In this document: positions 1-19,239 of the stretch, piece after piece
Layout of the letters: every line of letters begins with the position of its first letter
How positions within the stretch are numbered: position 1 is the first letter of the stretch
Source of the DNA: Bryobacterales bacterium
GTDB lineage: Bacteria > Acidobacteriota > Terriglobia > Bryobacterales > UBA6623
Direction: 5' to 3'
DNA length: 64,000 bases
Assembly: GCA_965248255.1 (NCBI GenBank)
Contig: CBDFIW010000001.1
Span: forward strand, 1,492 to 65,491
Notes under the pieces: generated by a model
What the model saw: only the letters and a program-made list of their open reading frames with translations
Database searches by the model: none
What the model was told of the DNA's origin: nothing
Made by a program: the position numbers and the translations under genes

Positions 1-943
1 TCTTGATATCCGTCTGGGTGAGCGAGACAAGGGCCCCGTAGAGCGCTGTCGTTCCGCCGACGACCGCAATGACGGTCATCGTCGATGGGGCAAGCACTAA
101 CAGGGGGCTGAACCGAACCAGCAGAAAAGGACCGGCGTTCACCATCGTGGCGGCATGGATCAGGGCCGAAACTGGTGTCGGAGCTTCCATTGCGAACGGC
201 AGCCAGATGTGGAGCGGAACTTGCGCAGACTTCCCCACACAGCCAATGAAGAGAAGGGTCGTAATCAGCGTATTGGCTCCGACCTTCCACTCCGAGCCCA
301 GCCAACCCAGGAGGTTGATGCTCTGTCCACTGATACTCGGGGCGGCCGCCAGAATCTGCTGAATATCAAGGGTCCCATACGTGGCAAACGTCACCACCAC
401 TCCGAACCCGAAGCCGAGATCCGCCACAGCGTTGGTCAAGAAGGCCTTCGTCGCTGCTCTGCCCGCTGCGTTTCGCTCGGCCCAATGAGAAATCAGCAAA
501 TAGGAGCAGATCCCCATGATCTCCCAAAGCATGAACGTCATCAGCAGGCTGTTGCTCATGACGAGCGTCACCATGGCGAAAGTGAACAGTGTCGTAACGG
601 CAAAGAAGCGCCGGTAACGCGGATCCCCGATCATGTACCGCGATGAATAGACGTGTACGACAAAACTCACACCAGTAACCAGGAGGAGCAATAAGACCGT
701 AAGCTGGTCTATGTACAGGCTCAGGTCAACGACGAGGCTTCCTACTTGGATCAGTCGATAGAGCGAGACCGAGATCGGCCCGCCGATCGATACGCTGACC
801 AGTGCCGCTACCGAGAGGGCGAACGACAGTCCAACCGCGGGAACCCCAATCCGATGACTTGTCTCAGCGAATACCCGCCCGCTCAGGGCCAGGGTCAGAA
901 ACGCCGTCAATGGCAGCAGTGGAATGAGTATGAAGATCGACAT
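1..943 (-). CDS. NuoL/MrpA/DabB-like proton-translocating antiporter subunit (N-terminal part; gene runs off the window start)
   Basis: Own translation of the minus strand from ATG at 943-941 gives MSIFILIPLLPLTAFL... It carries ND5/NuoL hallmarks WEIMGICSYLLISHW and GKSAQVPLHIWLPFAMEAPTPVSALIHAATMVNAG. It is absent from the ORF track because there is no stop inside the window. It starts 28 nt downstream of the mrpD stop. Confidence 0.85.
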   Translation of the reverse strand, partial: MSIFILIPLLPLTAFLTLALSGRVFAETSHRIGVPAVGLSFALSVAALVSVSIGGPISVSLYRLIQVGSLVVDLSLYIDQLTVLLLLLVTGVSFVVHVYSSRYMIGDPRYRRFFAVTTLFTFAMVTLVMSNSLLMTFMLWEIMGICSYLLISHWAERNAAGRAATKAFLTNAVADLGFGFGVVVTFATYGTLDIQQILAAAPSISGQSINLLGWLGSEWKVGANTLITTLLFIGCVGKSAQVPLHIWLPFAMEAPTPVSALIHAATMVNAGPFLLVRFSPLLVLAPSTMTVIAVVGGTTALYGALVSLTQTDIK

Positions 944-971
944 CCTGTAAATGTGTCTCGTTATTCCCTGT

Positions 972-2441
972 TCACAAGCCCAGACGACTCGTCGCCTGCA
1001 GCAACACCTGCACAATCCGGTCACTCCACAACCCTAGACCTACGATGGCTACCGAAAGCACTCCGGCGCTGAAGCGTAGTTGGAGAGGAGTCTCAACCTC
1101 CGGAGAACTCGGACCCGTCTGGCCGTCTCGCAGCATGCGTTCCAGGACCTGTATGAAATAGGCCATGGTCAGCAGCGTCGTGAGCAAGATGGCCGCAACT
1201 GCTGCGTAGTTTTCTTTCTCGATCGCACTGAGCACGATGTACCACTTTCCAAAGAAACCACCCGTTGGGGGGAGGCCGATCATCGAGATTGCCGCCACGA
1301 CGAATCCGGTGATTATCCAAGGAGTCGGTAGCCGCGTGCGGCCGAGATCGTCGAGAGTTCGAGCTCCGTACCGCCAACCGACGGCGCCGGCCATGATGAA
1401 CAACAGGCACTGCATCACAGCGTCATTGATTAGGTAGAACAAGCCGCCGGCTACACCTGTCTGATTACCCTGACCCACGCCGACAAGTGCGAGTCCGATG
1501 TGCGCCAGACCCCCGTAGGCGAACCTTCGTTTCAGGTTCTGCTGTGTCAGTGCGAGAACCGCGCCGCCGACCGATGCAAGGGCGCCTACAACCCACAGCA
1601 GCCCGAACATCTTAATAACCCTTTCGTCGTTTCCCGCCGGCAAGACCCAGTACAGAATCCGAATCCAAGCAAGCAGCGCGACCTTCGTCACCAACGCAGC
1701 CAAGAGCGGCGAAACCGCGTCAGGAGCTTCTGTATAGGCGTCGGGCAACCATCCGTGCAGCGGCATCAGCGCCATCTTGATGCCAAGCCCGATGAACATG
1801 AAACTCAGTCCGCCGATCACCGCTTTAGAGGCGAGGAGGTCCGGCACGCGTTGCGCCAGGTCGGCCATGTTCAGGGTGCCTGTCGCCGCATAGAAGTAGC
1901 CCACACCTAGCAAGTAGAACGAAGCGCCCAGCGAGCCCATGATGAGATATCGAAAGGCGGATACCAGGGACCGCCCGCCTGGGACACCCACGAGCGCGTA
2001 TCCTGACAGCGCCGCTATCTCGAGGAAGACGAATACGTTGAAAAGGTCTCCGGCAAAGACAATGCCGGTCAGGCCGGACACCAGGGTCAGAAGGATCGCG
2101 TGGTAGGGCACGGTGCGGCCCCCCAACTCCGTCCCCGCTTCGTGGCGTGTATGAAGCAGCGAGAGGAAAGCGAGCGCACTGAGTGCGAATGCCATGATGC
2201 CGGCGATCTCATCGGCTACCCATTCGATTCCGGCGGGCGGCGCCCATCCGCTGAGGGCGTATCGGATCTCGCCGTGGCTCAAGATCCTCCACAAGGTCGC
2301 CGCCGAAAGAAGGAACATAGCCCCAAGAGCCGTCAACGCAAGCGGACGGCAGCGTCCCGGATCTTTCAAGCCGACAAGCGGCATACAAATCGCCGCCAGA
2401 AACGGAACGAGGAAAACGAGTATGGGAAGGTGATCGCTCAT
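972..2441 (-). CDS. mrpD: Mrp/Mnh antiporter subunit D (NuoM/N-like proton-conducting membrane transporter)
   Basis: 489 aa polytopic protein. Motifs FNVFVFLEIAALSGYALV and PLHGWLPDAYTEAPDAVSPLLAALVTK are typical of the MnhD/NuoN family. Its ATG overlaps the mrpC stop (ATGA). Confidence 0.88.
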   Translation of the reverse strand: MSDHLPILVFLVPFLAAICMPLVGLKDPGRCRPLALTALGAMFLLSAATLWRILSHGEIRYALSGWAPPAGIEWVADEIAGIMAFALSALAFLSLLHTRHEAGTELGGRTVPYHAILLTLVSGLTGIVFAGDLFNVFVFLEIAALSGYALVGVPGGRSLVSAFRYLIMGSLGASFYLLGVGYFYAATGTLNMADLAQRVPDLLASKAVIGGLSFMFIGLGIKMALMPLHGWLPDAYTEAPDAVSPLLAALVTKVALLAWIRILYWVLPAGNDERVIKMFGLLWVVGALASVGGAVLALTQQNLKRRFAYGGLAHIGLALVGVGQGNQTGVAGGLFYLINDAVMQCLLFIMAGAVGWRYGARTLDDLGRTRLPTPWIITGFVVAAISMIGLPPTGGFFGKWYIVLSAIEKENYAAVAAILLTTLLTMAYFIQVLERMLRDGQTGPSSPEVETPLQLRFSAGVLSVAIVGLGLWSDRIVQVLLQATSRLGL

Positions 2442-2833
2442 TCCAGTTTCTTGAGGATCTCGTCCTCGTCCAGGCTGCCGTACTTCTTATAGATCCCGGC
2501 GACCAAGGCAAGCGAGACACCAAGCGTCGCCACTTGCACGACGATCGCAGTCAGGGTCAGCACGTGTGGCAATGGATTCACGTAGGCCTCCGGCTGAACG
2601 GCCGTTTCGCCGGGCATAAGAATCGGAACCGTCGCTCCGTCCTTGGCACTGGTGGTGACAAGGAAGAAAATGACACTCGTCTGAACCAAATAGAGCCCAA
2701 TCAGTTTCTTCACGAGATTGTGGTGCGTGACCGTGATGTAGACCCCCCACAGGAACAAGATGACGAACGCGATGAAGTTCGGCCTCTGTAACCAGGCCTG
2801 CACGAGCTCAACCATGAGAGTCTCCGTTGCCAC
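2438..2833 (-). CDS. mrpC: Mrp/Mnh antiporter subunit C (NuoK-like)
   Basis: Small 3-TM protein with the expected size and operon position for MnhC. The track start at 2833 is GTG. An ATG at 2815 avoids overlap with mrpB and may be the true start. Confidence 0.8.
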   Translation of the reverse strand: MATETLMVELVQAWLQRPNFIAFVILFLWGVYITVTHHNLVKKLIGLYLVQTSVIFFLVTTSAKDGATVPILMPGETAVQPEAYVNPLPHVLTLTAIVVQVATLGVSLALVAGIYKKYGSLDEDEILKKLE

Positions 2834-3290
2834 TAACGACCGACAGACTGTAGACGATCGAGATCGCCGTCACCGCGACATCGACAGCCACGCCGATCTG
2901 CGTCAGCAGGATTCCCAGAAAGCGGCGCGCCGGCGCGGCCAGGCCCGGAACCTCCAGCTCGGCATAGTTCAGGAACTGCCCGCCGCCGATCAGACATAGT
3001 CCACCGACGGCTGCGAAAATCATCAGTCCCACACCGTCGGCCTTCGTGATTCTCTTTGCCACCATCGTCGGCCGGTCAGTAGGACCGAAGACGAGAATCC
3101 CCAGGATGAGACTCGTCCCCAGCATGACCCCGCCCACAAAGCCGCCCCCCGGGCCGTACTGACCGAAGAAGAGGATGTAGACCGCGAAGATCTGAACCAG
3201 GGGAATGAGTCCCCCGCTCAATCGCCGCACAATAATGCTGTCGTGTGGTGACTCGATCACGTCGTGTCTCTCCTCAGCAGCAGCCAGCAC
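2808..3290 (-). CDS. mrpB: Mrp/Mnh antiporter subunit B
   Basis: Membrane protein with an MnhB-like segment (LIPLVQIFAVYILFFGQYGPGGGFVGG). An alternative GTG start at 3260 overlaps the upstream stop as GTGA. Confidence 0.75.
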   Translation of the reverse strand: MLAAAEERHDVIESPHDSIIVRRLSGGLIPLVQIFAVYILFFGQYGPGGGFVGGVMLGTSLILGILVFGPTDRPTMVAKRITKADGVGLMIFAAVGGLCLIGGGQFLNYAELEVPGLAAPARRFLGILLTQIGVAVDVAVTAISIVYSLSVVSGNGDSHG

Positions 3291-3787
3291 GCGATTCCGG
3301 CCGTGAAAATCACGGCCGTCTCCATCAGGGTGTCGAGGGCGCGGTAATCCATCAGAACGGCGGTTACGACATTCGGGGTCTGCGTGTCAGCGAGGCTGTT
3401 CTCGAGATAAAAAGGCGATACGTGCGTGCTGGCCGGAGACGCCGGATCGCCGAACGCGGCGAGGTCGTTCGCGGCGTAGAGCAACAGCAGCCCAAGAAGG
3501 GGCAGACCCACCACGGCGGCGATGGGCGGCGGCGTACGCCGAATCAAAGTGTCGCGGGGGTCAGTCCCAAACAAAGTCAGGACAAAGAAGACCGTCGCCA
3601 AGCCGGCGCCCACGACTGCCTCGACAAAAGCCACGTCAACCGCTCCGAGCCATGCCCAGACGAGTGCGAGAAAGAAGCTATACGACCCCAGGATGAGGAC
3701 GGCGCTCAGGAGGTCCTTCACGACGATGGCCCCACCCGCCGTCAAGATCAGCAGGACCAGCAAGGGTAATTCGAACGAATACGTCAT
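3257..3787 (-). CDS. MrpA C-terminal/MbhD-like (DUF4040) plus MnhB N-terminal-like subunit
   Basis: 176 aa membrane protein. NVVTAVLMDYRALDTLMETAVIFTAGIA matches the conserved MnhB motif (N.VtaIl.dYRg.DTlgE). It sits between mrpG and mrpB, as in Mbh/Mbx-type modules. Confidence 0.7.
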   Translation of the reverse strand: MTYSFELPLLVLLILTAGGAIVVKDLLSAVLILGSYSFFLALVWAWLGAVDVAFVEAVVGAGLATVFFVLTLFGTDPRDTLIRRTPPPIAAVVGLPLLGLLLLYAANDLAAFGDPASPASTHVSPFYLENSLADTQTPNVVTAVLMDYRALDTLMETAVIFTAGIACWLLLRRDTT

Positions 3788-4083
3788 CGCCGATCCTCAC
3801 CCCAAGGCTTCACTCCGGAACGAAGCGCTGCGCGCACCGTCGCATGGCTGATGACCGGGTTGATCAAGTACAGAATCGCCAAGACCACCAGAATTCGAAC
3901 CAAGTTCGGGCTGAAGCCCTGGTTGACCGCCAATCCGGTCAGGAGAAAGAACGCGCCCAGTGAATCCGTGAGTGCGACGGCATGGGAGCGCGTGTATACG
4001 TCGGGTAGGCGCAGCATGCCGAGCGCGGCAACAGCGAGAAAGAACAACCCGACTACGATCAGGGCGATGCTCACGGCGGTCAT
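3784..4083 (-). CDS. mrpG: Mrp/Mnh antiporter subunit G
   Basis: 99 aa, 3 TM. LRLPDVYTRSHAVALTDSLG is typical of MnhG. It has 4-nt overlaps with both neighbours. Confidence 0.85.
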   Translation of the reverse strand: MTAVSIALIVVGLFFLAVAALGMLRLPDVYTRSHAVALTDSLGAFFLLTGLAVNQGFSPNLVRILVVLAILYLINPVISHATVRAALRSGVKPWGEDRR

Positions 4084-4349
4084 GAGGGAGCCCCCCGCTG
4101 TTCGAGGTATTTGGCAATCGCCAAAGCACCCACCAGATTGAGCAGAGCGTACCCGGTGGAAATGTCAACAAACATCTCCACGCGATCGTAGACGGTGCCG
4201 ATGACGACCAACAGAATAATCGCCTTTGTCGAAATTCCATTCAGCCCCAAAACGCGGTCGTAAACGGTAGGTCCGCGAACGACGCGATACAAATAGATGA
4301 TGATCATCACCGCCAAGATGTCTAGCACGAAGAGAAAGAATGTATTCAT
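4080..4349 (-). CDS. mrpF: Mrp/Mnh antiporter subunit F
   Basis: 89 aa. RVVRGPTVYDRVLGLNGISTK is typical of MnhF. It has 4-nt overlaps with mrpE and mrpG. Confidence 0.85.
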   Translation of the reverse strand: MNTFFLFVLDILAVMIIIYLYRVVRGPTVYDRVLGLNGISTKAIILLVVIGTVYDRVEMFVDISTGYALLNLVGALAIAKYLEQRGAPS

Positions 4350-4840
4350 GCCGCACCTTCCCTTGCCTGGAAAACCTCCGCCACCTTGCGCTCCAACCGT
4401 TGGCTATTGAGGTCTTGTAGCGATTCGTCGTCCATGGCATGCACGATGAGCTCATCGCTCCGCGCTTCCGCGGTAACCGTGCCGGGCGTCAATGTGACTG
4501 AGTTACCCAAGAGCACGATGCTCGGTTCGTGGTCCGCCTGAGGTCGATAGCGAACCAACACAGGAGCAATCGGCAACCTCGGGTGGAGAATCAGAAACGA
4601 CAAGTGCAGTCCGCTGACGAAGATCCGTCCGAACAGCCAAGGGAAGAACCGCAAGAGCTGCAGCCAGCGGATTGCAACGTCGGCGGGCCGGGCTGGGTCG
4701 GTATTCAAAAGTGCGACGCCGAATGACGCCACGAGACCGAGAGCGATGTGGGCCGGGCTATAGCTTTCCGTCAGGAGAACCCAAATGACAAAGAGAGCCA
4801 ATGCTTTGTAAGCGAGATGTCTATCGAAAAGGCTGTTCAT
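4346..4840 (-). CDS. mrpE: Mrp/Mnh antiporter subunit E
   Basis: 164 aa with two N-terminal TM segments and GNSVTLTPGTVT, a conserved MnhE motif. It starts 22 nt after the dabA stop. Confidence 0.8.
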   Translation of the reverse strand: MNSLFDRHLAYKALALFVIWVLLTESYSPAHIALGLVASFGVALLNTDPARPADVAIRWLQLLRFFPWLFGRIFVSGLHLSFLILHPRLPIAPVLVRYRPQADHEPSIVLLGNSVTLTPGTVTAEARSDELIVHAMDDESLQDLNSQRLERKVAEVFQAREGAA

Positions 4841-4862
4841 GGAAAAAAGACGACCGGTGGAT

Positions 4863-7800
4863 CTACGCGACCTGTTTCAGCGACAGCGCCTCCCAAGCGG
4901 ATTCAGTGTTGTATCGGTGAAAGGCGTGGGTGTCGGGGTCTAGCGCTAGCAGGTTGACCCAGCCGTTGTGGAATAGTTTCTGGAGGATGTCATGGCGTTC
5001 GATCAGCATCGAAATGCGATCGGTCGGCGCTTCGATGATGGCCAGCAGTCTCATCGGCTCATGATAGTGAAGCGCTCCGTCGTTGACACTTTGCAGCGGA
5101 AGCCCGCTTTGTAGATCGCTTTGGCTTCCAAGCATCACGCCCACACCCGCTACCACGTTGTGGATGACCTTGCTGCCACTACCGTAAACCCAAGGAGCGG
5201 CGGCGGAGTGATAGTACTCCATGTTGATCCATTCGCCGACGATCAGCGGGGCTGTCATGATCTTTTCCAGCAGCCCTCCATCCGGGTCGGCCTCTGGATC
5301 GTAGGAATGCAGGAAGACCCGTCCGTCCAGCGAGAGGCCATGCGTCAGGCTTCGTCTCCCGATGATGAAGCCCACATTGCTCGACAAGCCCCATTCCGGT
5401 CGAGGATTAGCCCAGTCGTCGCTGCGCGCCACCACATGCTCGAAGGCCTTCGCTGCTGACATGTTGGTCGACGTTCCAGGGAGCCGGCCACACCGTTCTT
5501 GAGCCCCATCGGCGCCTGCTTTCTCGAGCACATCCTGCAACACCTGTAGGTCCTCAGCGTGACTCAAGGGCAATTCATCCAGGTCATAGCAACTGAGTCG
5601 ATCGGTCGTCGTATTGTGTTTTCCTGCCAGGAACCACGTATCCTCGGGGATCTCAAGTCCGCTTTGCTTGAGAAGTCTCCGAACCTCGGAACTGTTGGCC
5701 ATGGCGGCGAAGACCCGTGCGTTCGGATCGCCGTGGCTTCCGCCGCAGGCTCCGCAATCGTAGGCGGCCGCGTAGGGATTGTTCTCCGACGTGCTTCCGT
5801 GGCCGGCGACGACCACGAAGCGCCCGAAGTTCTTTGTCAGGCCAATGATCCGCAGCCCGTTGCCCACGAACGTCGCCTGCTCCTCGAGGGTGAAGCCCTC
5901 GGGCAACGCCACGTCTTCGCTGCCTTCGGAATCAGCGTCTGCACGTTCCACCGGTATTCGCGTTGGCACGGCGTTGAAGAACCATCTCTTGATCCGGTCC
6001 CGAATGGCTGCGTACGGTTTCATGACCAGCGTCTTGCCCGCGAGACCGATGGAGAAGAAGAACCCCAATGCATCCACAAGCATGAAGGCGCTGATCGGAT
6101 TCGCCTTCAGATCGTGAAACAGTTCGTCGGAGAGTTGCCACCAACGGCTCCCCGATGCATAGCACTGCAGTGGTTCCTGAGCGCCGGCTCCGGGTGTCTC
6201 GTTCACCGCAAACGAGGGCTTCAGTAGGACGGGGCAGAGCGCCAAACGCCCTGTCGCGTCGAAAGCCTGATGACTGATAGGAATCCCGAAGAAACCGGCG
6301 TAGCCGAACGTCTCGTAGGGCCCCTGTGCCTCGAGGTGCCGGCGAAACGGCTCGGAACGCGCGTCGATACAGAAGATCAATTGCGCGTGAGGGCGGATCT
6401 TCGCTGACTGATCCCCGCCGCGATGAGAAGACAGTTTCCCGACCAGTTCCCTTCGGTATCCATCCTCATACGCTTCTAACCAGACGGCGCTGTGATCATC
6501 CTCAGGAAACACATCCAACCACTCCACCAATGTCTGAGCATCACCCGGAGCAAGCTGTCCCACTTCTTCGGACGTTAGTTCGAGACACTGCGCCAGGTGG
6601 AACAACCGCCACGCACTTCGACACAAGCCGTCCGTCCGAGGGTCACTGTGATGAGAAGGTTCCGCAGTCAGTTCAAGATACTCATCACTATTCGACTGCC
6701 AGTATGTTGTGAGGGCGGACAGAGTTCCCGCGATCCCCCACTCCCGTTGGCACAGCGCGTCTGTCAGCTCGACTTCATAGACCAGACGGACGGCAACGTA
6801 CTGGACGATGTCGATCGGATGCTTCTGTTGACCGGGGTACTCGGGGTTCTCGGTGAGCCAGCGGATAAAACCCGTCCAACCCGGCAGTTGAGCGAACAGC
6901 CGAGACTGATATTCCTTCCTTCGGTCGGGCGGAATCTGCAGCCGATCCAGGCTGAGAGCGATAGCTTCTTCGGCCGAATCCGGCAGTTCACGGATCTTCC
7001 GCGAGAAGTTCTTGATGCCCAGGAAACGGCAGGAAAAGTCGCGCGATGCGAGTTCGCGCCACCCTTTGTAGAAACCGCCTGCCCGCGAGGGCATCTCCCA
7101 GCCGGCCACTCCCTCGTCGAGAAAGGCCGCCGTCCATTTCATCATCTGATCGTTGATCTGTTCGACCAGTGAGGAGCCGGTCAGCGTGTCAAGCCAGTCA
7201 CTGATCGTGCGCTCGGTCGGCAGGGTCGGTTCGGTTGCCGCCGGGGGCGTGTCCTCTCCTTCGGCATCCTGGGGTTCGTGGCTGTCCGAGTCCGCGAGGT
7301 TGAGTGCGGCCAGCGTGGTGTTCCAGAGCTGGCTGACGTACTGCTTCTCTCGATCCTCTGAGGCCTCCGCCGCCTCGACGCGAAGTTTCTCCAGGATGCG
7401 CCGCTTCGATTCATCGGAAAGACCGCCGCAGAACCTCTCGATTCCTTCTTTGGCGTTCAGCGTCCACGTCAAGAGCGACGGCTCCAGCACGTCGATCCCA
7501 TGAAGCAAATGCAGGCGAAAGACCTCGGAGGCCTCAACGTTGCGAGACCCTGCACGGACTCCACCGGAGTCCACGCGCGGGCCAACACGATCCAGGGCTC
7601 CTAGGACGCTCCGCTCCGTGATGCGGCCCTCCCGATAGAGCCGACGGTATTCCTCGTTGGAGAGATAACCCGTTCCACCGAACAGCCTATTCCCTCTCCG
7701 CGCCGCCTCGTCGAACGGCAAATGCTCGAAACCCCGAACCGGGCTGCGGTACGCAAAGGTTTTCAGCGGCCAGATCGGAGATACGGGCTCGCAGGCTTCC

Positions 7801-7877
7801 CCTACTTGCTGACGCAAGTTGTCCCGCCCTTCTGCGGACAAGTTGGCCTTTGGACGCGTGGTCGATTCTGGTGTCAT
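4863..7877 (-). CDS. dabA: DUF2309 family protein, DabA/MpsB-like (putative inorganic-carbon pump catalytic subunit)
   Basis: About 1000 aa. Family hallmarks are IFCIDARSEPFRRHLE...TFGYAGFFG and VVVAGHGSTSENNPYAAAYDCGACGGSHGDPNARV. The track ORF starts at a TTG (7988) that overlaps sulP by 65 nt. The ATG at 7877 (MTPESTT...) leaves a 46-nt gap and is preferred. Confidence 0.9.
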   Translation of the reverse strand: MTPESTTRPKANLSAEGRDNLRQQVGEACEPVSPIWPLKTFAYRSPVRGFEHLPFDEAARRGNRLFGGTGYLSNEEYRRLYREGRITERSVLGALDRVGPRVDSGGVRAGSRNVEASEVFRLHLLHGIDVLEPSLLTWTLNAKEGIERFCGGLSDESKRRILEKLRVEAAEASEDREKQYVSQLWNTTLAALNLADSDSHEPQDAEGEDTPPAATEPTLPTERTISDWLDTLTGSSLVEQINDQMMKWTAAFLDEGVAGWEMPSRAGGFYKGWRELASRDFSCRFLGIKNFSRKIRELPDSAEEAIALSLDRLQIPPDRRKEYQSRLFAQLPGWTGFIRWLTENPEYPGQQKHPIDIVQYVAVRLVYEVELTDALCQREWGIAGTLSALTTYWQSNSDEYLELTAEPSHHSDPRTDGLCRSAWRLFHLAQCLELTSEEVGQLAPGDAQTLVEWLDVFPEDDHSAVWLEAYEDGYRRELVGKLSSHRGGDQSAKIRPHAQLIFCIDARSEPFRRHLEAQGPYETFGYAGFFGIPISHQAFDATGRLALCPVLLKPSFAVNETPGAGAQEPLQCYASGSRWWQLSDELFHDLKANPISAFMLVDALGFFFSIGLAGKTLVMKPYAAIRDRIKRWFFNAVPTRIPVERADADSEGSEDVALPEGFTLEEQATFVGNGLRIIGLTKNFGRFVVVAGHGSTSENNPYAAAYDCGACGGSHGDPNARVFAAMANSSEVRRLLKQSGLEIPEDTWFLAGKHNTTTDRLSCYDLDELPLSHAEDLQVLQDVLEKAGADGAQERCGRLPGTSTNMSAAKAFEHVVARSDDWANPRPEWGLSSNVGFIIGRRSLTHGLSLDGRVFLHSYDPEADPDGGLLEKIMTAPLIVGEWINMEYYHSAAAPWVYGSGSKVIHNVVAGVGVMLGSQSDLQSGLPLQSVNDGALHYHEPMRLLAIIEAPTDRISMLIERHDILQKLFHNGWVNLLALDPDTHAFHRYNTESAWEALSLKQVA

Positions 7878-7923
7878 CGATACCGTCGTTTCAGATACTT
7901 CCCTGTTGAAAATCACACGAGCT

Positions 7924-9561
7924 TCAAGGCCACCGACGCCGAATATGTGCTGCCGTCGGGTACGAGGACACCTTTCGGTGCTGGTCAAGCCCCTTGATAA
8001 CGAGGGTGGCGCCCTGCTCTTGAAACTCCTTCTCCATCTCGTGAAGCTTCTCCATCACCGTGTGGTCAATGAGAGCCGTTTCTGACAGGTCCAGCACCAC
8101 GGGCGACTGGTCCTTCACGGCTTCAAGATGCTTTTTCAATCCGATCCAGGTGCTGAATACCGCCGCGTCCTTCACACGGACCAAAGCCCTGCTTTCATCA
8201 TCGCGTCGAACGTCGACTCCCAGTCGAAACAGTGAGCGCACGGGGGCACCGTTGACGAGATGAATCACCGCCTTTACAGCAATCCCGATGGCGATACCCA
8301 TGAGCAAGTCCGTTGCGAGCACGCCGACGATGGTCGAAACGAAGATGATGAGCTGTTCCCGCCCCACCCGATACATATGAACGAACTCGCGAGGAGACGC
8401 CAACCGGAATCCCGTGAAGACGAGCATCGCCCCAAGCGCTGCCAGTGGGATCTGATTGATCAGGCCGGGGACGAGTGCGACAGAGATAAGTAGGAAAAAC
8501 CCGTGATACATGTTGGCGAAGCGGGTTCTCGCACCGTTGTCAATGTTCGCTCGGCTACGCACGATCTCGGAAATCATGGGTAGCCCACCCACGAAGGCGG
8601 CCACGGTATTACCCACACCGATCGCGAGCAGGTCGCGGTCATGGTTTGTTTTCCTCTTCCAAGGGTCAATCGTATCGACTGCCTTCGCGCTCAAGAGTGA
8701 CTCTACGCTGCCGATCAACGAGAACAGAACGATGTACTTCAATCCGATGCCCGTCGCCACTCCTGAGAAGTCAGGAAACGTCAGCGCGCTAAACATGTTC
8801 TGCGGAACATTGACCAGGAAAGGAGGACCGACGCTGTACTCCGATCCTCCGAACGAGTAGATATGCTCGCGGCCGATTTCAAAATACAGCCCTAGCGGGA
8901 CAGTGATGAGCAGCACCACCATGGGCGCCGGTACGACCTTCACACGCGGATTCTTGATGAAAGGAAACCCGAACATCACGATCAGACTGATGATTCCGAT
9001 CAGCCCGATGACCGGATTCATATTCGCGATGAAGGAGGGAATCTTCGCGATGAGTTCCAAAGGCGACCCTTCCGATCCCAGGCCCAGCGTGACGGGGATC
9101 TGCTTGGCCATGATGATGACGCCGATACTGGCCAGCAAGCCATGGACCGCGGCCGTCGGAAAGAACTCCCCGAGAATGCCCGCCCGAAACAGTCCGAAGA
9201 GAATCTGAATGGCCCCGGCCGCGACGCCGACGCCAAGAGCGAGGCGATATGCCTGGAAATCCGCAGCGGGATCCCTACCGGCCGTAAAACCGAAATCCGT
9301 GACGCAGCCGATCGCGATCACGATAAGACCGGCGGCCGGGCCCTTGATGGTCAGTTCCGAGTTGCTAAAGAAGGTAGCCAGCACCCCGCCGATAATCGCC
9401 GTGAAGATGCCGGCGATCGCAGGATATCCACACGCAAGGGAGATCCCGAGACAAAGCGGTAACGCGATCAGGAAGACGAGAAAACCGGAAAGCAGGTCTG
9501 ACTTCCAGTAAGCCCGGAACCCCGCCGGCGTCCCTATCGGTATTACATCCTGCGTACTCAC
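7924..9561 (-). CDS. sulP: SulP family inorganic anion transporter with C-terminal STAS domain (BicA-like)
   Basis: 545 aa with a polytopic N-terminal region (LIALPLCLGISLACGYPAIAGIFTAIIGG). The C-terminal segment resembles a STAS domain (VVLDLSETALIDHTVMEKLHEMEKEFQEQGATLVIKGL). GTG start. Confidence 0.9.
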   Translation of the reverse strand: MSTQDVIPIGTPAGFRAYWKSDLLSGFLVFLIALPLCLGISLACGYPAIAGIFTAIIGGVLATFFSNSELTIKGPAAGLIVIAIGCVTDFGFTAGRDPAADFQAYRLALGVGVAAGAIQILFGLFRAGILGEFFPTAAVHGLLASIGVIIMAKQIPVTLGLGSEGSPLELIAKIPSFIANMNPVIGLIGIISLIVMFGFPFIKNPRVKVVPAPMVVLLITVPLGLYFEIGREHIYSFGGSEYSVGPPFLVNVPQNMFSALTFPDFSGVATGIGLKYIVLFSLIGSVESLLSAKAVDTIDPWKRKTNHDRDLLAIGVGNTVAAFVGGLPMISEIVRSRANIDNGARTRFANMYHGFFLLISVALVPGLINQIPLAALGAMLVFTGFRLASPREFVHMYRVGREQLIIFVSTIVGVLATDLLMGIAIGIAVKAVIHLVNGAPVRSLFRLGVDVRRDDESRALVRVKDAAVFSTWIGLKKHLEAVKDQSPVVLDLSETALIDHTVMEKLHEMEKEFQEQGATLVIKGLDQHRKVSSYPTAAHIRRRWP

Positions 9562-10490
9562 GGCTGGAGAATCCCCTCACTCGCGGTGGCGAACTTTGAC
9601 GCAAGCGGAACAGCCGCCAGCGCCGCAACCGAGCGCCTGACGGAATCGCAGTAACCAAAACGTTGCCGCTGCTGCGTGATGCATTCGCACCGGCCCTTCA
9701 AGAAGCCACGGACGAGGCAATGGAAGTGTTTCAACATAAGTCTGCACTCTAGAAAACGGTGTTGAAGTTCGTGGCGGACACAGGAGTCGGCACGACGGTG
9801 CCGACGAGCTGTGCCATAGGTACTAACGACTCCGATGATCAGACGATGCCGGAGCCGGCACTCGGTGAGCGCTCGCTAAGGAAAAGCTAGATCAAGGAAT
9901 AGCGACCGACGAGGGGCGGGCCCCGAGGCGGATTGGGACGGGAACCAGTGAATCGATTAGCAGTTGCGAAAGAAGCTATGCCACCGCCCACCACGATACC
10001 TGAACAGGTAGGCTGGAGCGGACAGGACAGGAAACCCACCGTCCTTGGGTCGGATGTCGGAACGTTGAGACAGTTCCCACCGACCGTAACCCAAAGTGGC
10101 TCAATCGCTGCGCGGGCATGACCAGTGTAGGGAATACTTCGGGTCACTCGAGAGCGCGGGCCGTTAGGGCGCAGACGGCGGGCGGGCGTGACTGCACTGA
10201 CGGCGAGCGATGCCCAAAGCGCCGGCAGCAGTACCGTGACTGCGACGCTGCACCGTGCGAGCTGTCTGAGGTGTAAAGCCATTCCGTCCAAGAACGGTTG
10301 TGGGTCGCTCAATGCGCCGGCGACATCAACTGCGATTGTAGCATGGCGGAGCGGGCCGATCGTCTTTGTCCGCAGCCCCTCTCAGCGTCAGCGCGATGAG
10401 CGCAACCCGCACTCCAGTGAATGCGCTCGTGTCCCGCCTCAGCTGGAAATGGAGAGCAGCGTTCCGCCGTTAAGCTAACGGAGGGGACGC

Positions 10491-10799: not shown

Positions 10800-11756
10800 C
10801 CGGGGTCTGGACGCCGCACGACGTACGGGACCAGATCGTCGATTTCGTGCGGCGCTGGTCGGAGAAGACCGAGATCGGCGTCGGACGCTTCATCGCCTGG
10901 CTCTCCATCGCGCCCAGCAAGTTCTACTCCTGGCGCTGGCGCTACGGCTCGATCAACGAACACAACGGTTGAGTTCCCCGAGATTTCTGGCTCGAAGAAC
11001 GGGAGAAACAGGCCATCGTCGATTTCTATCGTAAGCATCCGCTGGAAGGCTACCGGCGGCTGACGTTCATGATGCTCGACGCCGATGTCGTCGCAGTCAG
11101 CCCGTCGAGCGTCTGGCGGGTGTTGAGTCGAGCGGGTCTGCTGCGCAAGTGGAACGGCAAAACATCACTGAAAGGGACGGGCTTCCAACAGCCGTTGGAG
11201 GCGCATCAACATTGGCATATCGACGTCTCCTACATCAACATCTCGGGCACGTTCTACTACCGGTGCAGCGTGCTGGACGGCTACAGCCGTGCCATCGTGC
11301 ACTGGGACTTGCGCGAGACGATGAGGGAAGCCGACATCGAGATCATTCTCGAGGCCGCCAAGGAGAAATATCCGCAGGCCCGACCGCGGCTCATCTCCGA
11401 CAACGGGCCGCAGTTCATAGCCAAAGGACTTCAAGCAGTTCATCCGCATCTCGGGGATGACGCACGTGAGAACGTCGCCCTACTACCCACAATCGAACGG
11501 CAAGCTGGAGCGTTGGCACAAGTCGTTGAAGAACGAATGCATCCGCCCGGGCGTGCCGCTGACGGCCGAGGAGGCGCGGCGGCTGATCCAGCGCTATGTC
11601 GAGCACTACAACACGGTGCGGCTGCACAGCGCGATCGGGTTTGTGACGCCGGCGGACCTGCTGGCGGGGCGAAGGGACGAGATCCACGCCGCGCGCGACC
11701 GCAAGCTGGAGCAGGCTCGACAGCAACGTCAGCGGCGGCGTCGGCAGGCGGCTTGA
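10781..11756 (+). pseudogene. IS3-family transposase OrfB (DDE/rve), inactivated
   Basis: The -1 frame after A AAA AAA reads KSWGTLTGVWTPHD... It has an in-frame TGA at 10970-10972 (...INEHNG*VPRDFWL, where a Trp is expected). An extra G near 11426 breaks QFIAK|DFKQFIRISGMTHVRTSPYYPQSNGKLERWH. Confidence 0.85.
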
Positions 11757-12210
11757 CGGGGGGAGTTACAATGGCGTTGCCGGGTGAAACGGAAGCGGGC
11801 ACTGCTGGGAAGCAACCGTGCCGAGGGATAGTCCGGCGGGCTCATCGAGACGATGAGGGCGGGCGCGGAAGCCACCTTTCGTGCCCGTCCCCCGAGTTCA
11901 TCGGATCGAAAGACCCGGATGCCTTGAAAATCCCCACCCGCAGGGCGGCATCTCCACTACCGCGGAACGCCCACTCTCCCGTTCCGGCTGAACCAGCACA
12001 CCAGGATAATGGAAACCGCCATGATGAAGATCGACGACCAAGTCTATTGACGCGGAGGATCGCGCACTCTCGGTTGTAGAAACTGACTACTAGGCTGCTA
12101 TTCTCCCGCATTTCCAATTTGATTCAAACCTCTCGACCTTCCGGCGGCCTTGAGCGTCTTTATTCATAGGGGCTAGAGCCCGATGAGGACGCCATGGAGG
12201 CCAACACCCA

Positions 12211-13542: not shown

Positions 13543-13746
13543 CGCGGCGAGCGCGGGGCAGCCGGAGCGGGGAGTTGCCGAGAGGCAAGGTCGGAGCGGT
13601 GTCGGCAGAGTGGCCGCTGGCGTTGCCGGAACGCCTTGACCGGACCCGATCTGAAGGCGGACCGGCGAAGAAAGCAGGATCGAACGTGAAAGCAGTGCGA
13701 AAACGTTGCACCGCAGCCGTGGCTCGCCTATGCTGTCAGTACCGGG

Positions 13747-14238
13747 ATGGCCAAAACGGTAATCCTGGTCTGGAAGGGCTTCGAGCATAACTTACTGGTC
13801 GAGGGCAGCTCGAACATCGTCATCGGTCCGAATGTGTTCGACCGTAACCCCGACTACCGTCCCCACGATAGCCGTAATAGCTTGCTGTTTGTCGATTCCG
13901 AGGATTGCACCTTGAACGGGCTGCATATCAACCACGTGAAAGGGGCCGAAGCAGCGCTGACGCTGCGGCGTTGCCGGCGCTTCAATCTGACGAACTCGAT
14001 GGTCCTGAATTTCGAGACGGTCGGGCTACTGCTTGACGACGTCCATGACGTGCGCGTGTCGGACAGCGTGATCCGTGACGATCGCCCTGAGTCGAAGGAC
14101 CCGATCGCGATAAGGCTGACTGGTGGGCGCGGCAATACGATCGTTGATAACCTACTAGCCGGGACGATCGAGGTAGCGGCTGGCTCCGCGCACTTAGAGG
14201 GTAATCTAGTTACGGCGGGGGCGAATCGGACCCGGTGA
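13747..14238 (+). pseudogene. C-terminal fragment of a right-handed parallel beta-helix repeat protein
   Basis: Repetitive N.x(V/I).x.N pattern (NIVIGPNVFDRN, CTLNGLHINH, FNLTNSMVLN, NTIVDNLL). The reading frame stays open upstream into IS1380-flanking sequence with no plausible N-terminus, so it is truncated by the IS pile-up. Confidence 0.6.
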
Positions 14239-14255
14239 TCAGAGGGCGGTTGAGT

Positions 14256-14355
14256 GGGTTTCTCGCAAAGGCGCAAAGAGCCGCTAAGAACGCAAAGAAT
14301 ATCCTTTGATCCTTCTTGGTGGCTTTGCGGTCCTTTGCGCCTTGGCGAGAAACCC
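14256..14355. repeat. ~100-nt imperfect palindrome between convergent genes
   Basis: GGGTTTCTCGCAAAGGCGCAAAG (14256-14278) pairs with CTTTGCGCCTTGGCGAGAAACCC (14333-14355). The inner part also contains GCAAAG/CTTTGC units. It abuts the stop of the oxidoreductase gene. Confidence 0.6.
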
Positions 14356-15690: not shown

Positions 15691-15777
15691 CGTGGGGATT
15701 GTAGATTCTACCTTAGCGTGTGCGCCCGATTTTAGTCGACGATAGTTTGTGTCTATTGAGTCCCGCATAATACCACG

Positions 15778-16275: not shown

Positions 16276-16342
16276 TCCACTTTCGTCGATGAAGACGAGC
16301 GTGCGGCCTTCGGTTTGGGCTTTTTTTTAGGGGCTGTCCTAG

Positions 16343-17005: not shown

Positions 17006-17023
17006 ATCGCCATCCTATCCCTA

Positions 17024-19215: not shown

Positions 19216-19239
19216 CCTTACGTCCTTCTTTGCCTACCC

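What the first reader, a model, noticed from the sequence alone, without database searches (positions are those of the whole stretch)
1..9561. DabA (DUF2309) embedded in a complete Mrp/Mbh-type multi-subunit antiporter module, preceded by a BicA-like SulP transporter
Seen in sequence: ten collinear minus-strand genes are packed with ATGA/GTGA overlaps or gaps under 50 nt. The order is SulP+STAS (7924-9561), DabA (4863-7877), MrpE, F, G, a DUF4040/MnhB-like subunit, MrpB, MrpC, MrpD, and a NuoL/MrpA-like subunit that leaves the window at nt 1.

DabA keeps the CID.RSE and GHGS...DCGACGG segments. In characterised DabA these provide the Cys/Asp/His/Cys zinc site.

Established knowledge: characterised DAB/Mps inorganic-carbon pumps are two-component, one DUF2309 protein plus one NuoL-like PF00361 protein. 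BicA bicarbonate transporters belong to SulP. The E-F-G-B-B-C-D order is the arrangement used in Mbh/Mbx-type respiratory modules.

Inference: DabA may dock onto a full multi-subunit cation-translocating module rather than a lone DabB. That would give an Mrp-energised vectorial CO2 hydration machine, co-expressed with an anion transporter. I do not know of a described system with this architecture.
Basis: partly seen in the sequence, partly recalled or inferred. Interest (0 to 1): 0.85.

Follow-up and report, generated by a model that had tools for sequence, protein, structure and literature searches.

The report
DabA CO2-hydratase built into Mrp operon
A CO2-capturing enzyme subunit (DabA) that is normally paired with one membrane protein is encoded here inside a complete multi-subunit ion-antiporter operon. 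The arrangement is strictly conserved in over a hundred genomes and metagenome contigs from four bacterial phyla, which points to a larger, so far undescribed class of energy-coupled inorganic-carbon pump.

Summary
They are tightly packed, and no terminator-like hairpin lies between genes.

Three corrections apply:
- The gene cut by the window edge is a true NuoL/NdhF-type subunit, not an MrpA-type or DabB-type one.
- In every relative an eleventh gene follows it, a NuoM-type subunit.
- The "DUF4040" gene is the split C-terminal domain of MrpA (MbhD and MbhE fused). SulP matches only at family level and is not a BicA orthologue.

The order dabA-mrpEFG-mrpA(C)-mrpB-C-D-nuoL-nuoM recurs in 44 species-level genomes and one further MAG. 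These come from Acidobacteriota, Gammaproteobacteria, Nitrospirota and Planctomycetota. A reverse search with an Mrp subunit alone found DabA upstream in 39 of 39 informative metagenome contigs.

The DabA zinc ligands, the coupling leucine and the membrane hairpin are conserved. These DabAs form their own clade, and its partners are NuoL/NuoM-type rather than short DabB.

Best reading (inferred, not shown): one complex in which DabA caps a complex-I-like/Mrp membrane arm, giving ion-gradient-driven CO2 hydration, possibly linked to Na+.

Earlier papers noticed parts of the cluster (ybcC-nuoL-nuoM-sulP; Mrp plus NuoL/M in Nitrospira) but not the whole. I class it as a new variant of a known kind.

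The parts
7924..9561 (-). SulP-family anion transporter with a C-terminal STAS domain (545 aa). First gene of the cluster. Its substrate is not assignable.
   Evidence: Pfam PF00916 (3.7e-55) plus weak, sub-threshold STAS matches. NCBIfam gives generic sulP. The BicA equivalog scores 123 bits against a cut-off of 880, and DauA 160 against 614. Best PDB match is 6ki1_A at 2e-18. Adjacent to dabA in 42 of 43 informative genomes and 7 of 16 metagenome contigs.
4863..7877 (-). DabA (PF10070/DUF2309), 1004 aa: the beta-carbonic-anhydrase-like catalytic subunit of a vectorial CO2 hydratase.
   Evidence: Pfam E=3.6e-260. PDB DabA2 9rd0_A at 3.9e-114. C503, D505, R507, H693 and C708 are invariant in 74 sequences. 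L831 corresponds to DabA2 L658. The only hydrophobic segment is 592-620 with D602; AF2 models it as a helical hairpin, H567-591 and H594-617.
4346..4840 (-). MrpE/MbhA-like subunit
   Evidence: PF01899, 1.1e-31. H134 is invariant in 99 family members.
4080..4349 (-). MrpF/MbhB-like subunit
   Evidence: PF04066. PDB 6cfw_B at 9e-11 and 6z16_F at 3.6e-7. D31 (equivalent to D29f) is invariant. N37 replaces D35f in 110 of 113 members.
3784..4083 (-). MrpG/MbhC-like subunit
   Evidence: PF03334, 3.9e-21. H34 is invariant.
3257..3787 (-). MbhD and MbhE fused: the split-off C-terminal domain of MrpA (DUF4040)
   Evidence: PF13244 plus PF20501. NCBIfam NF009159 scores 155 against a cut-off of 141. It aligns to MrpA residues of about 600-810 in 7d3u_A and 6z16_A, and to MbhD and MbhE in 6cfw. 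E56, D152 and E156 are invariant in 125 members.
2808..3290 (-). MrpB/MbhF-like subunit
   Evidence: PF04039, 1.3e-19.
2438..2833 (-). MrpC/MbhG/NuoK-like subunit. The true start may be the ATG at about 2815.
   Evidence: PF00420. PDB 6u8y_G at 3.5e-16 and 6cfw_G at 9e-13. Q51-T52-S53 are invariant where Mrp and MBH carry His/Asp cation ligands.
972..2441 (-). MrpD/MbhH-type antiporter-like subunit (489 aa)
   Evidence: PF00361. PDB 6u8y_H at 3e-57, 7qru_D at 1e-48, 6cfw_H at 2e-47, NuoN at 1e-30. The TM5 Glu and TM7 Lys are conserved.
1..943 (-). N-terminal 314 aa of a NuoL/NdhF-type subunit, cut by the window edge. It is full length (about 690-750 aa) in relatives. A NuoM-type gene follows it there, outside the window.
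   Evidence: PF00662 plus PF00361. The full-length orthologue at L001:16957-19137 matches 6hum_F at 2e-79 and E. coli NuoL at 4e-73, against MrpA at 1e-37 and DabB2 at 6e-32. TIGR01974 scores 459 against a cut-off of 407.5. The next gene, L001:19085-20734, matches NuoM 8qby_M at 6e-120.
9562..10351 (-). Upstream region conserved with the closest relatives. It holds a small ORF (9887-10312, 141 aa, no Pfam match). A promoter or leader role is possible, and membership in the cluster is uncertain.
   Evidence: Nucleotide homology of about 82% to L001-L003 runs from 1 to about 10351 and then stops. No Pfam hit. No Rfam hit.

Best explanation
The operon encodes one dedicated inorganic-carbon acquisition machine. 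Its order is (sulP)-dabA-mrpE-F-G-mrpA(C)-mrpB-C-D-nuoL-nuoM.

What is shown:
- DabA carries an intact DAB-type catalytic and coupling signature.
- The cluster is inherited as a unit across four phyla.

What is inferred:
- DabA sits on the cytoplasmic face of the NuoL-type subunit, as DabA does on DabB in the solved DAB structures. It inserts its helical hairpin into that subunit.
- The NuoM-type subunit takes the place that the half-size DabC occupies in DAB1.
- MrpD and the small subunits (MrpC, MrpA(C), B, F, G, E) continue the chain. This matches the NuoL-NuoM-NuoN-NuoK/J order of complex I and the MrpA(N)-MrpD-small-subunit order of Mrp.
- Ion flow through this arm drives the conformational cycle that makes CO2 hydration to bicarbonate one-directional in the cytoplasm.
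- The Mrp small-subunit module adds a second ion path, most likely Na+ or another cation exchanged against H+. Carbon capture would then be tied to the Na+ cycle rather than to proton-motive force alone, which would suit marine and alkaline habitats.
- SulP, where present, moves an anion of the same pathway, probably bicarbonate.

In the mostly heterotrophic hosts the product would feed carboxylases. In Nitrospira it would feed autotrophy.
For: - Family assignments are confirmed.
- DabA matches the solved DabA2 at 3.9e-114, with zinc ligands, L831 (=L658) and the hairpin with D602 all conserved.
- The gene order E-F-G-A(C)-B-C-D-L-M is identical in all 40 genomes long enough to show it. One of them has the L-M pair inverted. 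A Pirellulales MAG has the same order with independent gene calls and Pfam labels, plus a beta-CA gene upstream.
- The flanks are not conserved, so the unit is exactly this cluster.
- In the reverse test, 39 of 39 informative metagenome contigs found through MrpA(C) alone carry dabA upstream of mrpE.
- All subunits diverge in parallel across lineages, and the small Mrp subunits are the most conserved.
- The DabA, NuoL and NuoM trees are congruent. The DabAs of this architecture form one clade with NuoL/NuoM partners, separate from the short-DabB clades.
- Only one gene in the operon supplies a NuoL-type domain with a lateral helix. DabA needs a NuoL-like partner, and a split-MrpA Mrp module needs an MrpA(N) equivalent, so both requirements converge on the same protein (subunit homologies from PMC7419157).
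- In DAB1, DabC superposes on the NuoM helices next to the NuoL-like DabB (bioRxiv 10.64898/2026.05.01.722082).
- The dabA and nuoL genes flank the mrp genes instead of lying together. That is what one would expect of one assembly rather than two.
- The essential MrpA(C) carboxylates (E56, D152, E156), MrpF D31, and the TM5 Glu and TM7 Lys of all three large subunits are invariant.
Against: - No experiment or complex prediction shows DabA, NuoL/NuoM and the Mrp subunits in one particle.
- A Nitrospira subclade keeps dabA-nuoL-nuoM without mrp genes in cis. A DabA-NuoL-NuoM core can therefore probably work alone.
- DabA has no insertion specific to the Mrp-linked members.
- The canonical Mrp cation ligands are changed: MrpF D35 is Asn, and the MrpC His pair is replaced by Thr/Ile within an invariant Q-T-S motif. 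Na+ specificity therefore cannot be assumed.
- The characterised DAB2 is proton-coupled and independent of Na+ (PMC13144422).
- SulP linkage is not universal.
Confidence: 0.55

Rival explanations
1. The operon makes two complexes.

The first is a DAB1-like trimer, DabA-NuoL-NuoM, that performs PMF-driven CO2 hydration on its own.

The second is an MBH-like Mrp subcomplex (MrpD plus MrpA(C), B, C, E, F, G) that acts as a cation/H+ antiporter. It would maintain the Na+ gradient for a Na+-dependent SulP bicarbonate symporter. It would also balance the proton load of CO2 hydration.

On this reading, co-expression rather than physical coupling explains the linkage.
For: - Nitrospira loci keep dabA-nuoL-nuoM without mrp genes.
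- In MBH, a module with the same gene order works with a single MrpD-type subunit (6cfw matches; PMC7419157).
- A cooperation model between BicA and Na+/H+ antiporters has been proposed for Ca. N. alkalitolerans and Aphanothece (PMC7784846).
- In L011 the nuoL-nuoM pair is inverted as its own unit.
- DabA has no Mrp-specific insertion.
Against: - The mrp genes sit between dabA and nuoL in about 80 loci instead of being appended.
- The cluster encodes no MbhI-like lateral-helix protein, so the Mrp subcomplex would lack the helix that clamps MrpA(C) in Mrp and MBH.
- No close relative of this Mrp module was found without dabA. The score was 39 of 39, although the scan reached only relatives of at least 69% identity.
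- SulP is often absent next to the cluster while the mrp genes never are.
Confidence: 0.3
2. The cluster is primarily a pH/Na+ homeostasis device rather than a carbon supply system. DabA hydrates CO2 to generate cytoplasmic protons at alkaline external pH. SulP exports the bicarbonate. The Mrp arm exchanges Na+ for H+.
For: - Mrp antiporters serve alkaline and saline adaptation (PMC5703873; PMC7784846).
- Hosts are largely marine or haloalkaline heterotrophs, judging from record names.
- Prokaryotic CAs have been linked to pH regulation (bioRxiv 10.1101/476713).
Against: - All characterised DabA systems accumulate bicarbonate for carboxylation.
- The DabA coupling signature is the same as in the carbon-concentrating DABs.
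- A beta-CA gene accompanies the cluster in L160.
- No experiment supports a proton-supply role.
Confidence: 0.08
3. The complex runs in the energy-conserving direction. An exergonic reaction at the DUF2309 subunit drives ion export through several antiporter-like subunits, as was proposed before the function of DabA was known.
For: PMC5700660 proposed this for ybcC-nuoL(-nuoM) operons. It suggested that more membrane subunits mean more ions moved.
Against: Solved DAB2 and DAB1 structures and assays show a latent carbonic anhydrase whose design blocks bicarbonate dehydration and which needs PMF (PMC13144422). The catalytic and coupling residues are the same here.
Confidence: 0.03

Closest known systems
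DAB1 / DAB2 (DabA-DabB(-DabC)) vectorial carbonic anhydrases of Halothiobacillus neapolitanus and Thermocrinis albus; MpsAB of Staphylococcus aureus
   Same: - PF10070 catalytic subunit with a Cys/Asp/His/Cys zinc site.
- Leu at the L658 position.
- A membrane-inserting helical hairpin with an acidic residue.
- A PF00361 NuoL-like partner encoded in the same operon.
- As in DAB1, a third membrane subunit stands at the NuoM position.
   Different: - The partner is a full-length NuoL/NdhF-type protein of about 700 aa with the C-terminal half and lateral helix. It keeps the TM8 His and TM12 Lys. It is not a 460-560 aa DabB, which has Tyr and Arg at those positions.
- The third subunit is a full NuoM, not the half-size DabC.
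- Seven Mrp genes lie between dabA and nuoL.
- The DabAs form a separate clade.
Group 3 Mrp (CPA3) Na+/H+ antiporters with split MrpA and two large subunits, for example Aphanothece halophytica mrpCD1D2EFGAB
   Same: All Mrp subunit types are present. MrpA is split into a NuoL-like protein and a DUF4040 protein, and the gene order is irregular. The essential MrpA(C) carboxylates and MrpF D29 are conserved.
   Different: - It carries DabA and an extra NuoM-type subunit.
- The NuoL-like protein scores as true NuoL, not MrpA.
- MrpF D35 is replaced by Asn, and the MrpC His/His site by Thr/Ile within an invariant QTS motif.
- Antiport activity is untested.
Cyanobacterial NDH-1MS / NDH-1MS' (NdhF3/NdhD3/CupA, NdhF4/NdhD4/CupB) CO2-uptake complexes
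   Same: The concept is the same: a zinc CO2-hydrating protein attached to the NuoL-type/NuoM-type end of a multi-subunit complex-I-like membrane arm, giving vectorial CO2 hydration (abstract; PMC13144422). The best PDB match of the NuoL-type subunit is cyanobacterial NdhF1.
   Different: - There is no redox module: no NuoH, B, C, D or I, and no ferredoxin site.
- The catalytic protein is DabA, not CupA/B.
- The proximal part of the arm is made of Mrp small subunits. Energy would therefore come from an ion gradient, not from electron transfer.
MBH / MBS respiratory complexes of Pyrococcus (Mrp-derived module MbhA-H)
   Same: The gene order is identical: E-F-G-(D,E)-B-C-D. The small subunits and MrpD find their best structural relatives in 6cfw and 6u8y. 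Entry 6u8y also holds two antiporter-like chains.
   Different: There is no hydrogenase or sulfane-reductase module, no MbhM/NuoH, and no MbhI. MbhD and MbhE are fused. NuoL, NuoM and DabA are added.
ybcC-nuoL-nuoM-sulP neighbourhood ('clade C') of Klimchuk et al. 2017, and the Mrp plus NuoL/NuoM plus bicA locus of Ca. Nitrospira alkalitolerans (Daebeler et al. 2020)
   Same: These are probably the same evolutionary lineage. They show the DUF2309 gene upstream of nuoL together with NuoM and SulP genes, or group 3 mrp genes followed by NuoL- and NuoM-like genes with bicA nearby.
   Different: Neither paper connects all three parts. The first does not mention Mrp small subunits and predates the known function of DabA. 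The second does not mention DUF2309/DabA.

Membership tests
DAB (DabA/PF10070 vectorial carbonic anhydrase) | PF10070 domain over the whole protein | tested here: met
   866 bits, E=3.6e-260, profile positions 2-747 of 747. PDB 9rd0_A at 3.9e-114.
DAB (DabA/PF10070 vectorial carbonic anhydrase) | Zinc ligands Cys-x-Asp ... His ... Cys, plus the Asp-Arg dyad | tested here: met
   C503, D505, R507, H693 and C708 align to the DabA2 site and are invariant in 74 of 74 sequences.
DAB (DabA/PF10070 vectorial carbonic anhydrase) | Hydrophobic Leu in place of the Gln/His of canonical beta-CAs (DabA2 L658) | tested here: met
   Window L831 in RPEWGL aligns to L658. It is Leu in all 55 members of this clade.
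DAB (DabA/PF10070 vectorial carbonic anhydrase) | Membrane-inserting finger/elbow helical hairpin with an acidic residue | tested here: met
   The only hydrophobic segment is 592-620, with D602 present in 56 of 74 sequences. AF2 models helices 567-591 and 594-617. It aligns to the DabA2 region around E444. Insertion into the partner was not tested.
DAB (DabA/PF10070 vectorial carbonic anhydrase) | Partner is a DabB-type subunit: short, about 550 aa, in the DabB clade of PF00361 | tested here: not met
   The partner is NuoL-type: 6hum_F at 2e-79 against DabB2 at 6e-32, and TIGR01974 above its cut-off. It forms a clade separate from short DabB and sister to the NuoL of nuo operons. It has His and Lys where DabB has Tyr and Arg.
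DAB (DabA/PF10070 vectorial carbonic anhydrase) | Energy-coupled DIC accumulation / rescue of CA-free E. coli | not testable with these tools
   This needs an experiment.
Mrp (CPA3) cation/proton antiporter | Homologues of all seven subunits MrpA-G in one cluster | tested here: met
   E, F, G, A(C), B, C and D, plus a NuoL-type protein that stands in for A(N). MrpA is split, as in group 3.
Mrp (CPA3) cation/proton antiporter | Essential carboxylates of MrpA(C) (E706, D792, E796) and MrpF D29 | tested here: met
   E56 (equivalent to MbhD E69, the E706 homologue), D152 and E156 are invariant in 125 members. MrpF D31 is invariant in 113.
Mrp (CPA3) cation/proton antiporter | Cation-coordinating MrpC H37/H40 (or Asp/His in MBH) and MrpF D35 | tested here: not met
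   In the alignment with 6z16_C, H37c falls on window T52 and H40c on I55, within an invariant Q51-T52-S53 motif. MrpF has N37 in 110 of 113 members.
Mrp (CPA3) cation/proton antiporter | Na+(K+)/H+ antiport activity | not testable with these tools
   This needs complementation of E. coli KNabc or vesicle assays.
MBH/MBS/MBX-type respiratory complexes | Mrp-like module in the order MbhA-H | tested here: met
   The order is E-F-G-(D+E)-B-C-D. Subunit mapping is from PMC7419157.
MBH/MBS/MBX-type respiratory complexes | Attached redox module (NuoH/MbhM and NuoB/C/D/I-like subunits) | tested here: not met
   None of the cluster proteins belongs to these families. No flanking family is conserved in more than 9 of 44 loci.
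Complex I / cyanobacterial NDH-1MS | NuoL- and NuoM-type subunits | tested here: met
Complex I / cyanobacterial NDH-1MS | Q-module and peripheral arm, NuoH/A/J/N, CupA/CupB | tested here: not met
   Absent from the cluster and from its conserved boundaries.
BicA bicarbonate transporter | SulP transmembrane domain plus STAS domain | tested here: met
   PF00916 scores above its cut-off. The STAS matches are weak and below the gathering scores.
BicA bicarbonate transporter | Orthology to BicA (NCBIfam equivalog NF050096) | tested here: not met
   123 bits against a cut-off of 880. The DauA and generic sulP models score higher. The PDB BicA domain 6ki1_A matches only at 2e-18, similar to other SLC26 proteins.

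The most novel reading that the evidence does not exclude
This would be a third structural class of DAB inorganic-carbon pump. It would be a redox-free counterpart of cyanobacterial NDH-1MS. DabA caps a complex-I-like arm of three antiporter-like subunits (NuoL, NuoM, MrpD). The proximal end of that arm is the Mrp small-subunit cation channel. CO2 hydration would therefore be driven by, or obligatorily exchanged against, a Na+ (cation) gradient rather than by proton-motive force alone. The class is widespread in marine heterotrophs, including Bryobacterales MAGs whose isolate names resemble sponge-symbiont bins. It also occurs in some Nitrospirota, Gammaproteobacteria and Planctomycetota.
Probability: 0.35. 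Interest if true: 0.85.

Novelty: new variant of a known kind. Interest (0 to 1): 0.7.

Why it matters
DAB complexes have only just been solved, and they are described as two- or three-subunit, proton-coupled machines. A conserved and environmentally abundant version wired into a full Mrp/complex-I-like arm matters for four reasons.

1. It would show that vectorial CO2 hydration has been grafted onto modular ion-translocating arms at least twice. The other case is CupA on NDH-1.
2. It offers a natural system for asking how many ions are needed, and which ions drive the reaction.
3. It bears on the open DAB (H+) versus MpsAB (Na+) question.
4. It suggests that many marine heterotrophs and symbionts invest about 10 kb of operon in capturing CO2. 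That is relevant to anaplerotic and dark carbon fixation budgets, and to engineering carbon-concentrating modules.

Annotation pipelines currently label these genes as unrelated 'NADH dehydrogenase', 'Na+/H+ antiporter' and 'DUF2309' entries.

Tried and rejected
- **Source contig.** I therefore used the closest relatives, L001-L003 (82% nt identity), for the part beyond nt 1.
- **Nearest Mrp modules not linked to DabA.** The MrpD homologue search listed only hits of at least 57% identity. The metagenome scan kept only MrpA(C) relatives of at least 69% identity. The point where this Mrp lineage joins stand-alone Mrp was not reached.
- **Insertions in DabA specific to Mrp-linked members.** None was found.
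- **Conserved flanking genes such as regulators or RuBisCO.** None was found. A beta-CA gene lies nearby in only one of the Mrp-embedded loci.
- **DabA structure model.** The AF2 model has mean pLDDT 70.8. Foldseek against the PDB gave only weak hits to carboxysomal beta-CA (E=0.013). That library copy ends at April 2026 and returned no DabA2 (9rd0) match. The model added little beyond the sequence match.
- **Regulatory signals.** The terminator and promoter scan gave no intergenic terminator and no clear sigma-70 promoter. Rfam found no regulatory RNA in the cluster.
- **Chance adjacency or decayed genes.** This is rejected by the conservation data. Only L058 shows a fragmented dabA.
- **DabB-like signatures in the NuoL-type partner.** There are only weak hints: R157, and two N-terminal loops missing as in DabB. 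The comparison rests on five closely related genuine NuoL sequences.

Full report
**1. The observation**

The region 1-9561 carries ten collinear minus-strand genes.
- SulP with a weak STAS match (7924-9561)
- DabA/PF10070, E=3.6e-260 (4863-7877, ATG at 7877)
- MrpE (4346-4840)
- MrpF (4080-4349)
- MrpG (3784-4083)
- a DUF4040 protein (3257-3787)
- MrpB (2808-3290)
- MrpC (2438-2833)
- MrpD (972-2441)
- a PF00662 plus PF00361 protein that starts at 943 and is cut by the window edge

Junctions are 4-nt overlaps, longer overlaps, or gaps of 22-46 nt. The terminator-like matches (16, against 10.9 +/- 4.1 in shuffles) all lie inside coding sequence. None sits between genes. Rfam finds nothing in the cluster.

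**2. What the subunits really are**

- The DUF4040 protein holds the MbhD and MbhE domains in one chain. It aligns to residues of about 600-810 of MrpA in solved Mrp complexes. It is therefore the split-off C-terminal domain of MrpA, not a second MrpB.
- MrpD finds MbsH, MrpD and MbhH as its best solved relatives.
- The truncated last gene is complete in the closest relatives, where it has about 726 aa. It is a true NuoL/NdhF-type subunit:
  - 6hum_F matches at 2e-79 over residues 6-612, which covers the C-terminal half.
  - E. coli NuoL matches at 4e-73, against MrpA at 1e-37 and DabB2 at 6e-32.
  - It passes the NCBIfam NuoL subfamily cut-off.
- In every relative that extends far enough, a further gene follows. 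It matches NuoM/Nad4 at 6e-120.
- The cluster is therefore eleven genes long and runs past the window edge.
- SulP is only a generic family member. The BicA equivalog scores 123 bits against a cut-off of 880, and PDB matches are weak.

**3. Conservation**

*Forward scan.* I scanned one genome per species with DabA and classified all ORFs by phmmer.
- The same architecture occurs in 44 genomes: 37 Bryobacterales/Acidobacteriota MAGs, 5 Gammaproteobacteria (Arenicellaceae, Pseudohongiella and others) and 2 Nitrospiraceae.
- All 40 loci long enough have the order E-F-G-A(C)-B-C-D-NuoL-NuoM. In one of them the NuoL-NuoM pair is inverted.
- SulP is adjacent in 42 of 43 informative loci.
- A Pirellulales MAG (L160) shows the same eleven genes, with independent gene calls and Pfam labels, preceded by a beta-carbonic anhydrase gene.
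- No flanking gene family is shared by more than 9 of the 44 loci. The conserved unit is exactly this cluster.

*Reverse scan.* I scanned metagenomes with an alignment of the MrpA(C) subunit alone.
- It returned more than 344 relatives.
- Of the 80 kept, all 39 with at least 1.6 kb upstream carry dabA directly before mrpE.
- In that set SulP is adjacent in only 7 of 16 informative contigs. The invariant core is therefore dabA to nuoM.

All subunits diverge in parallel between lineages. The small Mrp subunits are the best conserved.

**4. Phylogeny**

In a neighbour-joining tree of 74 DabAs, the Mrp-embedded proteins form one clade.
- That clade also includes a Nitrospira group with dabA-nuoL(about 745 aa)-nuoM.
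- It is separate from DabAs paired with short DabB proteins of 460-550 aa.
- Two Mrp-embedded Nitrospiraceae loci branch at the base of the Nitrospira group that lacks mrp genes. Loss of the mrp genes is therefore the simpler history.

The trees of the large membrane subunits agree.
- The DAB-linked NuoL proteins are sister to the NuoL of nuo operons from the same phylum.
- The terminal subunit is sister to genuine NuoM.
- Short DabBs are a different branch.

The DAB-linked NuoL keeps the TM8 His and TM12 Lys of NuoL, where short DabBs have Tyr and Arg. It also keeps the whole C-terminal half that DabB lacks.

**5. Functional residues**

*DabA.*
- C503, D505, R507, H693 and C708 are invariant. 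They align with the zinc site of solved DabA2.
- L831 corresponds to L658 of DabA2, the hydrophobic replacement that makes the enzyme latent (PMC13144422). It is Leu throughout this clade.
- The single hydrophobic stretch (592-620, with D602) matches the 'finger/elbow' hairpin that inserts into DabB. An AlphaFold2 model of moderate confidence shows it as a helical hairpin.

*Mrp part.* Residue roles follow the Mrp structure paper (PMC7419157).
- The essential MrpA(C) carboxylates are invariant (E56, D152, E156). So are MrpF D31, MrpG H34, MrpE H134, and the TM5 Glu and TM7 Lys of all three large subunits.
- Two canonical cation-path positions are changed in a family-specific and strictly conserved way. 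MrpF D35 is Asn in 110 of 113 members. The MrpC His pair (Asp/His in MBH) is replaced: H37c aligns to T52 and H40c to I55, within an invariant Gln-Thr-Ser motif.
- The module is under strong purifying selection, but its ion specificity cannot be read from sequence.

**6. How it most likely works**

*Shown.* This is a dedicated module that is inherited and transferred as a unit, and it contains a catalytically intact DAB-type enzyme.

*Inferred.* The operon encodes one complex.
- Only one protein in the operon supplies a NuoL-type domain with a lateral helix.
- DabA needs such a partner in both solved DABs.
- A split-MrpA Mrp module needs it as its MrpA(N).
- The mrp genes lie between dabA and nuoL rather than beside them.
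- In DAB1 the small DabC occupies the position of the NuoM helices next to the NuoL-like subunit. A full NuoM fits that position here.

The predicted chain is DabA/NuoL-NuoM-MrpD-(MrpC, MrpA(C), MrpB)-MrpF-MrpG-MrpE. It mirrors NuoL-M-N-K/J in complex I and MrpA(N)-D-small subunits in Mrp. Ion flow along this arm would gate the buried active site and make CO2 hydration one-directional, as proposed for DAB2. The Mrp small-subunit channel would add a second ion path, which could tie carbon capture to the Na+ cycle.

This makes the system a redox-free analogue of cyanobacterial NDH-1MS, in which CupA sits on NdhF3/NdhD3.

I put this model at about 0.55. The Na+-coupling step is much less certain, at about 0.35.

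*Main rival (about 0.3).* Two co-expressed complexes: a DabA-NuoL-NuoM trimer, which exists alone in Nitrospira, plus an MBH-like Mrp antiporter that services Na+ and pH balance for SulP and DabA.

*Minor rivals.* A pH-homeostasis role, and the pre-2019 idea of an ion-exporting energy converter.

**7. What is known already**

Literature searches and reading gave the following.
- DABs are described as DabA-DabB, DabA-DabB-DabC, or fused proteins. They are treated as not attached to larger complexes.
- Klimchuk et al. 2017 noted that ybcC (DUF2309) upstream of nuoL often comes with NuoM and SulP genes. They speculated that more membrane subunits mean more ions moved. They did not mention Mrp small subunits, and the enzyme's function was then unknown.
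- Daebeler et al. 2020 drew a 'group 3 Mrp' locus in Ca. Nitrospira alkalitolerans with two extra NuoL/NuoM-like genes and bicA nearby. They proposed Mrp-BicA cooperation but did not mention DUF2309.
- I found no paper that describes DabA embedded in an Mrp operon.

The searchable library holds open-access papers only, so a description elsewhere cannot be excluded. I class the finding as a new variant of a known kind.

**8. Caveats**

- The trees are neighbour-joining trees on MAFFT alignments without support values.
- Classification of neighbours used phmmer with the window's proteins, not curated HMMs. The exceptions are the window, L001 and L160.
- Most genomes are MAGs.
- Habitat statements rest on record names.
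- Nothing here tests transcription, assembly or transport.

**9. Context of the window**

Homology with the closest relatives stops about 790 nt upstream of sulP. Beyond that the window holds:
- several IS elements
- a Mu-like element with raised G+C
- two identical inverted group II introns
- ordinary housekeeping genes

No RuBisCO or carboxysome genes were seen among the larger ORFs tested.

Noticed in passing
window 11069-21000: An IS-rich zone lies directly beyond the sulP end of the cluster. It holds an rve integrase (11069-12079), a DDE_Tnp_1_4 transposase (12211-13542), an IS630-like HTH plus DDE_3 in two ORFs (17053-18095), a second HTH fragment (18130-18696), and an IS1595 transposase (20033-20980). 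Homology with the closest relatives ends at about 10351.
   Followed up: partly
window 22667-37064: A probable Mu-like transposable prophage or integrated element with raised G+C (0.63-0.67). It encodes DUF5131, an N6/N4 DNA methylase, an 830-aa CHC2 primase-like protein, a ResIII/DEAD helicase, a PD-(D/E)XK nuclease, RecT, and a Mu-type transposase (rve plus Mu-transpos_C).
   Followed up: partly
window 38068-40016 and 45716-47665: Two 100% identical group II intron copies lie in inverted orientation. Each has an RT/maturase ORF and Rfam RF02001/RF01998 matches. They bracket about 5.7 kb that holds AtuA-like, Na+/glutamate-symporter-like and phage-integrase genes.
   Followed up: partly
window 9887-10312 (-): A small ORF (141 aa, no Pfam match) lies upstream of sulP, inside the stretch conserved at about 82% nt identity with L001-L003. 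It could be a real small gene or a leader or regulatory region of the operon.
   Followed up: partly
L052, L053, L056, L061 (Nitrosomonas, Methylomonas and relatives); L063, L071, L072, L077 (Pirellula/Planctomycetaceae): Other multi-subunit DabA neighbourhoods exist. One is mrpD-dabA-dabB(about 530 aa)-mrpD-mrpD, and another is dabA-dabB-mrpD(about 470 aa). Extra PF00361 subunits around DabA therefore seem common beyond the Mrp-embedded class.
   Followed up: no
L064 (Ca. Kuenenia MAG) 2407-10480: Three DabA-like ORFs lie in tandem on one contig.
   Followed up: no
DabA alignment, window residue L831: The position of DabA2 L658 is Leu in all 55 DabAs of the NuoL/NuoM-partner clade. It is His in 18 DabAs of the short-DabB clades sampled here. 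This hints at catalytic subtypes within PF10070.
   Followed up: no
L160 7785-8450 (Pirellulales MAG GCA_039831705.1): A conventional beta-carbonic anhydrase gene (PF00484) lies directly upstream of sulP-dabA-mrp-nuoLM. It is the only Mrp-embedded locus with one. Beta-CA genes also lie near DabA in L047, L053, L056 and L069, and one is fused to SulP in L079.
   Followed up: partly
L011 17025-20667; L058 9959-12924: In L011 the nuoL-nuoM pair is inverted but still adjacent to the cluster. In L058 dabA is broken into five ORFs, which means either a pseudogene or assembly errors.
   Followed up: no
MrpF N37 (window about 4239-4241) and MrpC Q51-T52-S53 (window about 2675-2683): These substitutions are family-specific and nearly invariant. 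They fall at positions that coordinate cations in solved Mrp and MBH complexes: D35f becomes N, H37c becomes T, and H40c becomes I.
   Followed up: partly
window 53679-61884: Ordinary housekeeping genes: QueC, a Tol-Pal-like set (TPR CpoB-like, OmpA/Pal-like, TolB-like PD40) and a RecN/SMC-like ATPase.
   Followed up: no
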